Notes under the pieces: model-generated
What the model was told of the DNA's origin: nothing
What the model saw: only the letters and a program-made list of their open reading frames with translations
Database searches by the model: none
Made by a program: the position numbers and the translations under genes
In this document: positions 41,967-43,893 of the stretch, piece after piece
Layout: each line of letters opens with the position of its first letter
Position numbering within the stretch: position 1 is the stretch's first letter
Source of the DNA: the human T2T-CHM13v2.0 reference genome, Homo sapiens
DNA length: 64,000 bases
Direction: 5' to 3' (one strand)
Assembly: GCF_009914755.1 (NCBI RefSeq)
Contig: NC_060941.1

Positions 41967-42137
41967 TATCCTTTGTGTTATGTTACTGACTGGTGTATAT
42001 GCCACTACCAGGCCAGAGTCATTAAACTGATCCACGCTTCCCAGGACTTTAGGAGGTTGTTCAGGAAAACGGGTAGCTCTGAAGTGTTCCGAAAAGATGC
42101 ACAAATATAGCCCTAGAAACAATGTTATTGTCCATTC
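41967..42137 (-). pseudogene. ABCA10: Formerly coding leader of the 205-nt exon: open frame EWTITLFLGLYLCIFSEH...QRI (ancestral TM1 and start of ECD1), in frame with the MNKM start
   Basis: No stops in frame (ORF 41895..42146); resembles EW-TM1 exons of ABCA6/8/9; acceptor TCTCTTTTGTGTGCTGGAG|GAA. Confidence 0.85.
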
Positions 42138-43752
42138 CTCCAGCACACAAAAGAGAAATGAGCCATGTTATAACGTGGTCCAGACCAGTGAGAAACATCC
42201 AAACACATTTTTAAGGCAGAATGTATTGCCATTGAGCATGACTTCATTTCAGTCTGTAATTTTTTTCTGCCCAAATTAATATCTACCTTTTAAAGAAAAA
42301 AACACCCTTTCAAAAATACACAACTTTTGAGATAATATCAACAATTGCAATCAATCTTAACCCAGTGATTTAGCACCCCTATTAGTGGGACTGCCATTGA
42401 TTTTATGCCCTCATATTTGAAGCAACGTAAGTATATGGCATCACACAGAAGATACTCTTGCCAAAAATATTTAACCAGAATTGGATCCTGCTTTTAGATC
42501 CAGCTCACTGCTTACAAAAAATATAGATGATAAAGGGATGACTTAAATGACAGCATGGAGAGGCAATCAGATAAAAAGAGAACATGGAATATTCAACAGG
42601 ATAACTAGTTTTGTCTCATTGGTTCCTGAACAAATCAACCTTAAAAGACATTTTGGGGGAAATTTGGAAAATTGAATTTGGCCATGGAACTAGATGATAT
42701 GGAATTATTTTTAATTTTGTGTAGTGGGATAGTGGTAATGTAGGGAACCAAGTTCTTAATTTTTTGAGATACTAAAATATTTAGCCATTACATATATTTT
42801 AGGGAAGAAGAGGAGACAGAGAGATGAAGCAAAGATGGCAAGATGTTAACAGCTGTCAAATCTGGATGGTGGATGTATAGGTGTTCATTGTACCAATATT
42901 TTCACATTTCTGGATTGACATACTTTTTTTAAATTCTAGTGAGTAATAAATATAGATGTATCCTTCTTCAATATACGAAGCAAAATATTTGATCGAACTG
43001 CTTCGGAAGCTATTGCAGAAATTTAAAAGGATGATATAAATCCTGTTAGCTCCCACTGAAATGGTACTGACTATTTCTGAACAGACTGCAATCTCTACAT
43101 GGTCAAGGCAGATCCAGTTATATCTCATAGTAACACAAAGCAATGTCTTAATATTCATGTCAGCATACAAGAAACTCAACAGAATGCAAAGGTATTGACA
43201 ATCTGTGATCTTATTCCATGAAACCATTCTATGTTTACAAAAAGCACGGCTTTGAAGAGATTCCAAAAAAGTTTGCAAATTTTTACTCATAGATATTTTC
43301 CCAGCCTTACCAAATAACATGACATTAATCGAAATGTCCCCAAATAGTATCAGGGTTTGCCCACGTAAAAATCTATTTTATTTTGCCTAGCTTATCTTTC
43401 CCCTGGCTGTCCCTGCCCCCAACACAGAAGTTAGCTAAGAGTAAATCAGAATGACTCTGAGATTTGAATGCATTAATTATGTGGAAAATGGCTGGTTCTA
43501 TTCTGCAAAAGATTATTTTTCAGGAGCTGTCAGATGAGCTTTTTAGTTAATTTCACATTTGACACAAATATTATCCTATTTTGCAAAATATATATCGTTT
43601 TGCAGTATTTAGAATCTCAAATCAACTAGCCAGTATGATAATTAAAAATCAGAATTTATAAACAAGAAAAGTAATAAAAATGGCATAATACTATATGGTG
43701 GATTTTCATTTATTAATTATGGATATATATATATATATATAGTGAATCATAC

Positions 43753-43893
43753 CAATAAACTCTCTTTTTATTCTCCATTTTTTAAGAAAATTCTTGTACA
43801 GAAGAGCCTGAATTTGTTGACGCACGCTTATCTCTTTTTTAACCATTTTGTCCTGTTCATTAACAGGGTAAAGTAAATATTGCAGAGCAATAG
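43753..43893 (-). pseudogene. ABCA10: Leader exon (141 nt) containing the ancestral start ATG (43846-43844) and the frameshifted N-terminus [31 protein letters not shown]
   Basis: Strong polypyrimidine acceptor TTTTTTCCCCTAG|CT, donor TTG|GTATGA; ALL.KN.LKKWR.KR is the ABCA-family N-terminal motif. Confidence 0.9.

What the first reader, a model, noticed from the sequence alone, without database searches (positions are those of the whole stretch)
41967..43846. The ABCA10 5' leader hides the ancestral N-terminus, disconnected by a 2-nt slip
Seen: from ATG 43846 the exon reads [31 protein letters not shown] and ends after 94 nt (AGA GAG TTT ATT G|GT). The next exon opens in phase 0 with EWTITLFLGLYLCIFS and stays open into MNKMAL. 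Known, from memory of paralogues: ABCA6 begins ...[21 protein letters not shown], a 32-codon first coding exon followed by TM1. Adding one AG to the AGAGAG run gives AGA GAG AGT TTA TTG = RESLL and restores an 89-residue N-terminal extension. Inference: an AG-repeat slippage removed the first cytosolic helix and TM1 from the main ORF, so the protein may be mis-topologised or the gene may be decaying. The otherwise stop-free relic suggests a recent lesion.
Basis: partly seen in the sequence, partly recalled or inferred. Interest (0 to 1): 0.9.

Follow-up and report, generated by a model that had tools for sequence, protein, structure and literature searches.

The report
ABCA10 start cut off by deletion
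Human ABCA10 still carries its original start codon and first membrane helix in what is now labelled 5' leader, cut off from the rest of the gene by a two-base deletion, which explains why this transporter looks as if it lacks its first helix.

Summary
From ATG 43846 (minus strand) the exon runs 94 nt to its donor. The next exon (42137-41933) is open in phase 0 into the annotated start at 41966.

ABCA6, ABCA8 and ABCA9 in the same genome all have 96 nt here. The only gap in the alignment is 2 nt in ABCA10, just before TTATTG|GT. Macaque, baboon and fruit-bat ABCA10 coding sequences also have 96 nt. Of 27 orthologue N-termini printed, 22 have 32 residues before EW.

The loss removes the helix before TM1 and TM1 itself. 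This explains an anomaly noted in two papers. The old ATG now opens a 56-codon uORF.

Chimpanzee, bonobo and orangutan gene models start at the same internal Met, and a stop-free relic is expected anyway. No ape DNA could be examined.

AG slippage is plausible, but an AC loss is equally parsimonious. In the papers I could search, I did not find this explanation for the missing TM1.

The parts
43844..43846 (-). Ancestral ABCA10 start codon (context GACAAAATGG). It is now uATG -265.
   Evidence: It aligns with the ATG of ABCA6, ABCA8 and ABCA9 and with Met1 of the monkey and other orthologues. PMC7700387 rates it as strong context, high TIS score and conserved in placental mammals.
43753..43846 (-). 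Remnant of the ancestral first coding exon: 94 nt instead of 96. It encodes the cytosolic helix before TM1 (IH1) and the start of TM1.
   Evidence: tblastn of P0004 residues 1-29 gives 28 of 29 identical, E = 1.65e-10.
43759..43765 (-). Site of the 2-nt deletion: an AGAGAG run (43765-43760) followed directly by TTTATTG.
   Evidence: GAGT--TTATTG against ABCA8 GAGTCCTTAATG, ABCA6 GAGAGCTTATTG and ABCA9 CAGACCTTGTTG; macaque and baboon have GAGACTTTATTG. Pteropus has GAGAGCTTATTG.
43751..43752 (-). Splice donor GT of the relic exon, conserved in the paralogues (GTATG).
42138..42139 (-). Annotated acceptor AG of the next exon. It has G at -3 (ggag|G), whereas the paralogues have cag| or tag|.
42090..42137 (-). 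Hydrophobic core of the ancestral TM1 (EWTITLFLGLYLCIFS), read in phase 0.
   Evidence: Kyte-Doolittle 19-residue maximum is 1.63, centred on TLLEWTITLFLGLYLCIFS in the intact monkey protein.
41967..42137 (-). 57 relic codons (TM1 and the start of extracellular domain 1), annotated as 5'UTR. They are open in phase 0 and run into the annotated ATG.
   Evidence: 53 of 57 residues match Chlorocebus. Paralogous exons were found in ABCA6, ABCA9, ABCA8 and ABCA5.
42061..42063 (-). TGA that ends the 56-codon uORF opened by the ancestral ATG.
   Evidence: The same uORF (-265 to -95, 171 nt, low Ribo-seq coverage) is listed in PMC7700387.
41964..41966 (-). Annotated start codon. It is an internal Met of the family (position 90 of the intact monkey protein).
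   Evidence: The human ORF aligns to P0004 residues 90-921. The Met is present in the orthologues (IMNKM, IMDKM).
42112..42114 (-). Hypothetical internal acceptor (tttctag|GG). It would put ATG 43846 back in frame, but at the cost of EWTITLFL. There is no evidence that it is used.
   Evidence: scan of all AG and GT sites.

Best explanation
Human ABCA10 has lost 2 nt at the 3' end of its ancestral first coding exon. The exon is 94 nt from the ATG to the donor, where the family norm is 96 nt.

The ancestral ATG at 43846 has a strong initiation context. It no longer reads into the next exon in phase 0. It opens a 56-codon uORF that stops 95 nt before the annotated ATG.

The annotated 1543-residue protein starts at an internal Met of the family, position 90. 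It therefore lacks the cytosolic helix IH1, TM1 and the first part of extracellular domain 1. Those 89 codons survive as a stop-free relic labelled 5'UTR.

Shown here: the deletion, the frame, the uORF, and the identity of the lost segment.

Inferred:
- The lesion arose after the split from Old World monkeys and is shared by great apes, so it is not recent.
- A protein made from the annotated ATG has no signal-anchor to put extracellular domain 1 into the ER lumen, so it is probably mis-oriented or inefficiently inserted.
- Its translation is hampered by the strong upstream ATG.
- The lesion did not kill the gene at once, because the downstream ORF has stayed open. Decay is now under way, as published population and expression data indicate.
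For: Sequence and frames.

Paralogues in the same genome: ABCA6, ABCA8 and ABCA9 first coding exons align from the ATG to GTATG. The single gap is 2 nt in ABCA10.

Orthologues:
- Chlorocebus ABCA10 (P0004, 1633 aa) begins [11 protein letters not shown]...KRETLL-EWTITLF.
- Macaque XM_015120204.1 and baboon XM_003913347.4 coding sequences read GAGACTTTATTG-GAATGG. Pteropus XM_011370409.1 reads GAGAGCTTATTG. These are passages from the supplement of PMC7674697.
- 22 of 27 printed N-termini have 32 residues before EW. Two Bos models have another first exon, and three Pan models start at MNKMAL.
- Of 122 stored family proteins, 100 matched a motif pattern, and 99 of those 100 have the same spacing.

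What is lost:
- Pfam PF12698 covers profile positions 14-347 in the monkey protein but only 116-347 in bonobo.
- The hydropathy peak of 1.63 lies on TLLEWTITLFLGLYLCIFS. The first 130 residues of the annotated human protein reach only 1.31.
- Passages of PMC13161189 say ABCA10 is predicted to lack TM1. A figure legend of PMC8508924 says IH1 is absent.

Not peculiar to this assembly: PMC7700387, which describes transcript ABCA10-201, lists the same uATG at -265 and the same 171-nt uORF.

Age: chimpanzee XM_016932845.1 and orangutan XM_009251980.1 coding sequences, and three UniProt Pan models, start at MNKMAL. Monkey models start at MVKKE.

No splice rescue: 0 of 11 AG sites and 0 of 5 GT sites scanned keep the full EW exon in frame.
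Against: - No ape genomic DNA was available. The age rests on gene models, which could be projections of the human annotation or could be truncated for other reasons. The orangutan model contains NN.
- No transcript, ribosome-profiling or peptide data were examined here.
- The downstream ORF is intact. The 832 codons in the window have no stop, align without gaps to the monkey protein (93.3% identity) and are 98.8% identical to Pan. An old lesion that had fully inactivated the gene would not have left this.
- PMC7700387 reports ABCA10 protein expression in 40 of 45 tissues. The source and specificity of that detection were not seen.
- PMC7674697 counts human, chimpanzee and bonobo ABCA10 as functioning genes and finds relaxed selection only on the human branch.
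Confidence: 0.82

Rival explanations
1. One reading: the deletion is a recent, human-lineage lesion. The gene has only just lost its N-terminus.
For: The relic has no stop and is 81 of 86 residues identical to the green monkey, no worse than the rest of the protein at 93.3%. PMC7674697 reports relaxed selection only on the human branch. No ape DNA was seen, so sharing of the lesion is not proven.
Against: Chimpanzee and orangutan NCBI models, and three UniProt Pan models, start at the same internal Met. The same NCBI pipeline starts monkey models at MVKKE. A stop-free relic has probability 0.70-0.94 under neutrality for 1.6 to 8 substitutions, so it dates nothing.
Confidence: 0.15
2. The N-terminus is rescued in part. 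The internal acceptor at 42112, or a +1 shift by the ribosome, puts ATG 43846 back in frame. That would give a longer protein with IH1 and a shortened hydrophobic segment.
For: The acceptor tttctag|GG at 42114-42113 restores the frame without a stop. The annotated acceptor has a disfavoured G at -3, unlike the paralogues. That G at -3 is disfavoured is recalled knowledge. The long survival of the downstream ORF calls for some working product.
Against: The annotation table given with the finding lists no such exon boundary. The isoform would lack EWTITLFL and keep only about nine hydrophobic residues (FIGLYLCIF), too few for a membrane helix. The same internal site exists in monkeys and in ABCA6, where it is plain coding sequence. 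There is no evidence of recoding.
Confidence: 0.07
3. The truncated form is a working gene product in its own right: a transporter with eleven membrane helices, whose translation is tuned by the uORF, kept by selection in great apes.
For: If the lesion is shared with Pan, a neutral ORF of about 4.6 kb should by now carry stops or frameshifts. My estimate is about a 2% chance of staying open per lineage. It uses recalled divergence and indel rates and the per-substitution stop probability. Yet 832 of 832 codons in the window are open and gap-free. PMC7700387 reports protein expression in 40 of 45 tissues.
Against: PMC7674697 reports frequent homozygous loss-of-function alleles (pNull 0.99), GTEx expression derived from truncated transcripts, and a gorilla pseudogene. 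TM1 is conserved in every intact family member seen. Seven upstream ATGs in the three leader exons examined precede the annotated start; PMC7700387 counts 14 in the whole leader.
Confidence: 0.25
4. Artefact: a 2-nt error in this assembly, or a rare allele of the sequenced genome.
For: Only one human assembly was read here.
Against: PMC7700387 places the uATG at -265 with a 171-nt uORF. That fits only a 94-nt exon. The 1543-residue protein has been the published form since 2003.
Confidence: 0.02

Closest known systems
First coding exons of human ABCA6, ABCA8 and ABCA9 (same 17q24 cluster)
   Same: Same ATG position, same donor GTATG, same KKWR-x7-EW junction, and the next exon begins GAATGG.
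   Different: They have 96 nt and stay in frame. ABCA10 has 94 nt. ABCA10's downstream acceptor has G at -3 instead of C or T.
Old World monkey ABCA10 (Chlorocebus P0004; Macaca XM_015120204.1; Papio XM_003913347.4)
   Same: The exon is nearly identical. By eye, human and macaque differ by 6 substitutions in 265 nt. The relic is 81 of 86 residues identical to Chlorocebus.
   Different: The monkeys have GAG ACT TTA TTG (96 nt) and a protein of 1633 residues with IH1 and TM1.
[quoted passage not shown]
   Same: It is the same missing segment (passages only).
   Different: [quoted passage not shown] Here the cause is a 2-nt deletion, with the missing part still present in the leader.
ABCA10 pseudogenisation in humans (PMC7674697, 2020)
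   Same: The same gene and the same direction of travel: relaxed constraint, common loss-of-function alleles, truncated transcripts, a gorilla pseudogene (passages and supplement).
   Different: In the passages seen, that paper treats the 1543-residue form as full length and dates the relaxation to the human branch. It does not mention the N-terminal frameshift. Its own supplement holds the monkey sequences that reveal it.
uORF -265 to -95 of ABCA10 (PMC7700387, 2020)
   Same: It is the same ORF with the same coordinates.
   Different: It is listed there as one of six predicted uORFs. In the section and passages read, it is not recognised as the ancestral start codon.

Membership tests
N-terminus of ABCA6-like ABCA transporters (IH1 and TM1) | A first coding exon of 32 codons that ends in phase 0, followed by an exon starting EW | tested here: not met
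   Human ABCA10 has 31 codons plus 1 nt. The paralogues have 96 nt. 99 of 100 pattern-matched family proteins have the standard spacing.
N-terminus of ABCA6-like ABCA transporters (IH1 and TM1) | Sequence homology of both relic exons to the family N-terminus | tested here: met
   Genome search: exon 1 matches ABCA8, ABCA6 and ABCA9 at E = 1e-4 to 8e-3. Exon 2 matches ABCA6, ABCA9, ABCA8 and ABCA5 at E = 3e-16 to 2e-3. tblastn of P0004 gives 1.65e-10 and 5.6e-35.
N-terminus of ABCA6-like ABCA transporters (IH1 and TM1) | A hydrophobic TM1 across the exon junction, covered by the start of Pfam ABC2_membrane_3 | tested here: met
   In the intact monkey protein the hydropathy peak is 1.63 at residues about 30-48, and PF12698 matches from profile position 14. 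The Pan short form matches only from position 116. A direct match of the 31-residue peptide to solved structures found nothing at E up to 10.
Upstream ORF | An ATG in the annotated leader with an in-frame stop before the main ATG | tested here: met
   56 codons, from -265 to -95. Low Ribo-seq coverage is reported in PMC7700387. Its translation was not tested here.
Unitary pseudogene (gene dead in this lineage) | A disabling lesion with no remaining long ORF, or neutral evolution of the remainder | tested here: inconclusive
   The frameshift removes 89 codons, but the remaining ORF is open. 832 of 832 codons in the window align gap-free to the monkey protein. Population and expression evidence for decay comes from PMC7674697.

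The most novel reading that the evidence does not exclude
The 2-nt deletion is old and shared by the great apes, yet the 1543-codon remainder has been kept open in human, chimpanzee and bonobo. If so, great apes have for millions of years used an ABCA transporter without IH1 and TM1, or one rescued by the internal acceptor at 42112. That would be a natural test of whether the first helix and its signal-anchor role are dispensable in this family. It would also move the start of ABCA10 decay from the human branch to the great-ape stem.
Probability: 0.25. Interest if true: 0.7.

Novelty: new member of a known kind. Interest (0 to 1): 0.45.

Why it matters
It gives a simple genomic cause for an oddity that structural papers on ABCA transporters have flagged without explaining: human ABCA10 seems to lack its first helix.

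It shows that the 'full-length' 1543-residue human protein used in evolutionary and population studies is already a truncated form compared with monkeys and other mammals. This bears on the published claim that relaxation of ABCA10 is confined to the human branch.

It identifies the strongest upstream ATG of the longest ABCA leader as the former start codon.

ABCA10 has no known function or disease link. The wider weight is therefore modest unless the truncated form proves to work.

Tried and rejected
- Earlier findings of this scan were not open to the session.
I did not repeat it with a longer query, because unnamed hits could not be assigned to a species and so could not date the lesion.
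- The two founding papers, Wenzel 2003 and Annilo 2003, are not held. I cannot say whether they mention the frameshift.
- phmmer of the exon-1 peptide against solved structures found nothing at E up to 10. With the whole monkey protein the alignments shown begin only at residue 172. The equivalence with TM1 of solved ABCA structures therefore rests on Pfam coverage, hydropathy and the literature, not on a direct alignment.
- The supplement of PMC7674697 holds coding sequences only, and I found no gorilla ABCA10 entry in it. Ape leader DNA could not be read.
- The tenrec model in the same supplement also starts at the homologous Met. I did not follow this up.
- The SVA exonisation reported for ABCA10 (PMC3794087) is not linked to this exon in the passages read.
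- Dating the lesion from relic divergence was rejected as too weak. By eye there are 6 substitutions in 265 nt against macaque. That is compatible with both early and late loss, because the monkey branch is coding.

Full report
**What is in the sequence.** On the minus strand an ATG lies at 43846-43844 in the context GACAAAATGG. The exon ends at 43753, followed by GTATGA. That is 94 nt, reading [31 protein letters not shown] plus one G. The next annotated exon starts at 42137 after ggag. In phase 0 it reads EWTITLFLGLYLCIFSEHFRATRFPEQPPKVLGSVDQFNDSGLVVAYTPVSNITQRIMNKMALASFMK, with no stop, straight into the annotated ATG at 41966. In the phase that splicing actually gives, the ATG at 43846 reads a 56-codon ORF. 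It ends at TGA 42063-42061, that is from -265 to -95 relative to the annotated start.

**Paralogues in the same genome.** The window's genome could be searched. The exon-2 peptide found the matching exons of ABCA6, ABCA9, ABCA8 and ABCA5. The exon-1 peptide found those of ABCA8, ABCA6 and ABCA9. All translate as family N-termini. In a DNA alignment of the four first coding exons, the ATG and the donor GTATG line up. The only gap between them is 2 nt in ABCA10: GAGT--TTATTG against GAGTCCTTAATG (ABCA8), GAGAGCTTATTG (ABCA6) and CAGACCTTGTTG (ABCA9). The family norm is therefore 96 nt, and ABCA10 has 94.

**Orthologues.**
- A protein search with the exon-2 peptide returned ABCA10 of green monkey, horse, lemurs, bats and an elephant shrew. 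Of those eight named proteins, all but one mouse-lemur isoform (P0011) carry the 32-residue exon MVKKE/MIKKE...KRE(S/T)LL immediately before EW.
- A second search used residues 1-300 of the green-monkey protein. Of 27 N-termini that I printed, 22 have this form. Two Bos models have another first exon spliced to the EW exon. The three Pan models start at MNKMALASFMK, like human.
- Of all 122 stored family proteins, 100 matched a motif pattern, and 99 of those 100 have seven residues between KW[RK] and EW. The 22 that did not match are the three Pan models, two unnamed ORF fragments, alternative isoforms and motif variants.
- The supplement of PMC7674697 gives coding DNA. Macaque XM_015120204.1 and baboon XM_003913347.4 read ...AAAAGAGAGACTTTATTG-GAATGG. 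Pteropus XM_011370409.1 reads ...AAAAGAGAGAGCTTATTG-GAGTGG.
- Intact orthologues thus have 96 nt.

**What was lost.**
- In the intact monkey protein the Pfam domain ABC2_membrane_3 matches from profile position 14 (residues 38-418). In the bonobo short form it matches only from profile position 116.
- The 19-residue hydropathy maximum of the monkey N-terminus is 1.63, centred on TLLEWTITLFLGLYLCIFS. The first 130 residues of the annotated human protein reach only 1.31. In the human protein the first segment above 1.6 starts near residue 184.
[quoted passage not shown] - The relic in the leader is exactly this missing part.
- Direct sequence matching of the 31-residue peptide to solved structures found nothing.

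**What the leader does now.** The former start codon is the uATG at -265. PMC7700387 lists it as having strong context and a high TIS score and as conserved in placental mammals. It lists the 171-nt uORF with low Ribo-seq coverage (section 2.6 and tables). That paper describes transcript ABCA10-201, so the 94-nt exon is not peculiar to this assembly. In the section and passages I read, the authors do not identify the uORF as the old start of the protein. Ribosomes that start at 43846 end 95 nt before the annotated ATG. Further ATGs lie at -197, -169 and -56. That translation of the main ORF is thereby reduced is inference.

**Can splicing rescue the frame?** I scanned every AG from 42200 to 41968 as an acceptor, and every GT from 43843 to 43701 as a donor. 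None of the 11 AG sites and none of the 5 GT sites keeps ATG 43846 in frame with the whole EW exon. The nearest frame-restoring site is tttctag|GG, with the exon starting at 42112. It would remove EWTITLFL. The annotated acceptor has G at -3, whereas ABCA6, ABCA9 and ABCA8 have cag or tag after long pyrimidine tracts. Whether 42112 is ever used is unknown.

**Age of the lesion.**
- In the 264 relic sites, a random substitution makes a stop with probability 0.042-0.045. The chance of no stop is therefore 0.94 after 1.6 substitutions and still 0.70-0.72 after 8. The argument has no force.
- The NCBI models of chimpanzee (XM_016932845.1) and orangutan (XM_009251980.1, with NN in an early codon) begin ATGAATAAGATGGCC. 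So do three UniProt Pan models. The same NCBI pipeline starts macaque, baboon and green-monkey models at MVKKE.
- I read this as a lesion that arose after the split from Old World monkeys and is shared by great apes. My odds are about 0.8 for Pan and about 0.55 for orangutan.
- This is indirect. No ape DNA was available, and models can be projected from human.

**Has the remaining ORF been kept by selection?** If the lesion is that old, the state of the rest of the gene matters.
- The 832 annotated codons in the window have no stop. They align without gaps to monkey residues 90-921 at 93.3% identity, and to chimpanzee at 98.8%.
- The relic itself is 81 of 86 residues identical to the monkey.
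- I used recalled figures: about 0.6% divergence per lineage since the human-chimpanzee split, and about one indel per eight to ten substitutions. With these, a neutral 4.6-kb ORF would stay open with a probability of only about 2% per lineage.
- This inference suggests that the shortened ORF was kept by selection for much of its history. That speaks against instant gene death.
- Against continued function today, PMC7674697 reports common homozygous loss-of-function alleles (pNull 0.99), GTEx expression derived from truncated transcripts, a gorilla pseudogene, and dN/dS of 0.58 on the human branch (passages).

**Which two bases were lost?** Human reads AGAGAG-TTTATTG. The fruit bat and ABCA6 read AGAGAGAGC-TTATTG, an (AG)4 run. 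Macaque and baboon read AGAGAGACT-TTATTG. Human and the monkeys share the T at the third position. The catarrhine ancestor therefore had AGT or ACT.
- From AGT, loss of one AG unit by slippage gives the human sequence.
- From ACT, loss of AC does.
- Each path needs two events.
- Slippage is mechanistically likelier, so I put it at about 0.6.

**Novelty.** I ran seven full-text searches: ABCA10 with frameshift; 1543; human-specific; TM1; pseudogene and primates; uORF; great apes. They found the anomaly, the uORF listing and the pseudogenisation study. In the passages read, none links them through a 2-nt deletion. Wenzel 2003 and Annilo 2003 are not held, so earlier mention cannot be excluded. 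The finding is an ordinary kind of lesion in a gene already thought to be decaying. It does explain a flagged structural oddity, and it revises what counts as 'full-length' human ABCA10.

Noticed in passing
window 42138-42140 (minus strand): The annotated acceptor of the EW exon is ggag|G, with G at -3. The same junction in ABCA6, ABCA9 and ABCA8 is cag| or tag| after long pyrimidine tracts. The acceptor may have weakened since the exon stopped being coding.
   Followed up: partly
window 43720-43745 (minus strand), intron just after the relic exon's donor: A (TA)n microsatellite starts about 8 nt after the donor. The paralogues have no such run at this place.
   Followed up: no
supplement of PMC7674697, Callithrix jacchus XM_017971742.1: The marmoset ABCA10 model has an unrelated N-terminus and skips part of the EW exon region. 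No New World monkey protein is named among the 120 listed hits. ABCA10 may be damaged at its 5' end in that lineage too, by a different route.
   Followed up: no
supplement of PMC7674697, Pongo abelii XM_009251980.1 and Echinops telfairi XM_013006288.1: The orangutan coding sequence carries NN in an early codon, which suggests a corrected frameshift or a gap. The tenrec model also starts at the Met homologous to the human annotated start.
   Followed up: no
supplement of PMC7674697, Tupaia chinensis ABCA8 XM_006146739.2: Tree-shrew ABCA8 reads GAG TTT TTA TTG (EFLL) at the same junction. An F at this position can therefore occur in an intact 96-nt exon of a paralogue.
   Followed up: no
window 43858-43860 (minus strand): Another upstream ATG, at -279, lies 14 nt before the ancestral start. 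It is in frame with the main ORF but stops after 10 codons.
   Followed up: yes
ABCA10 gene, place not determined: PMC3794087 reports an SVA-F element that is exonised as a cassette exon in transcript AL832004 of ABCA10. I did not locate it in the window.
   Followed up: no
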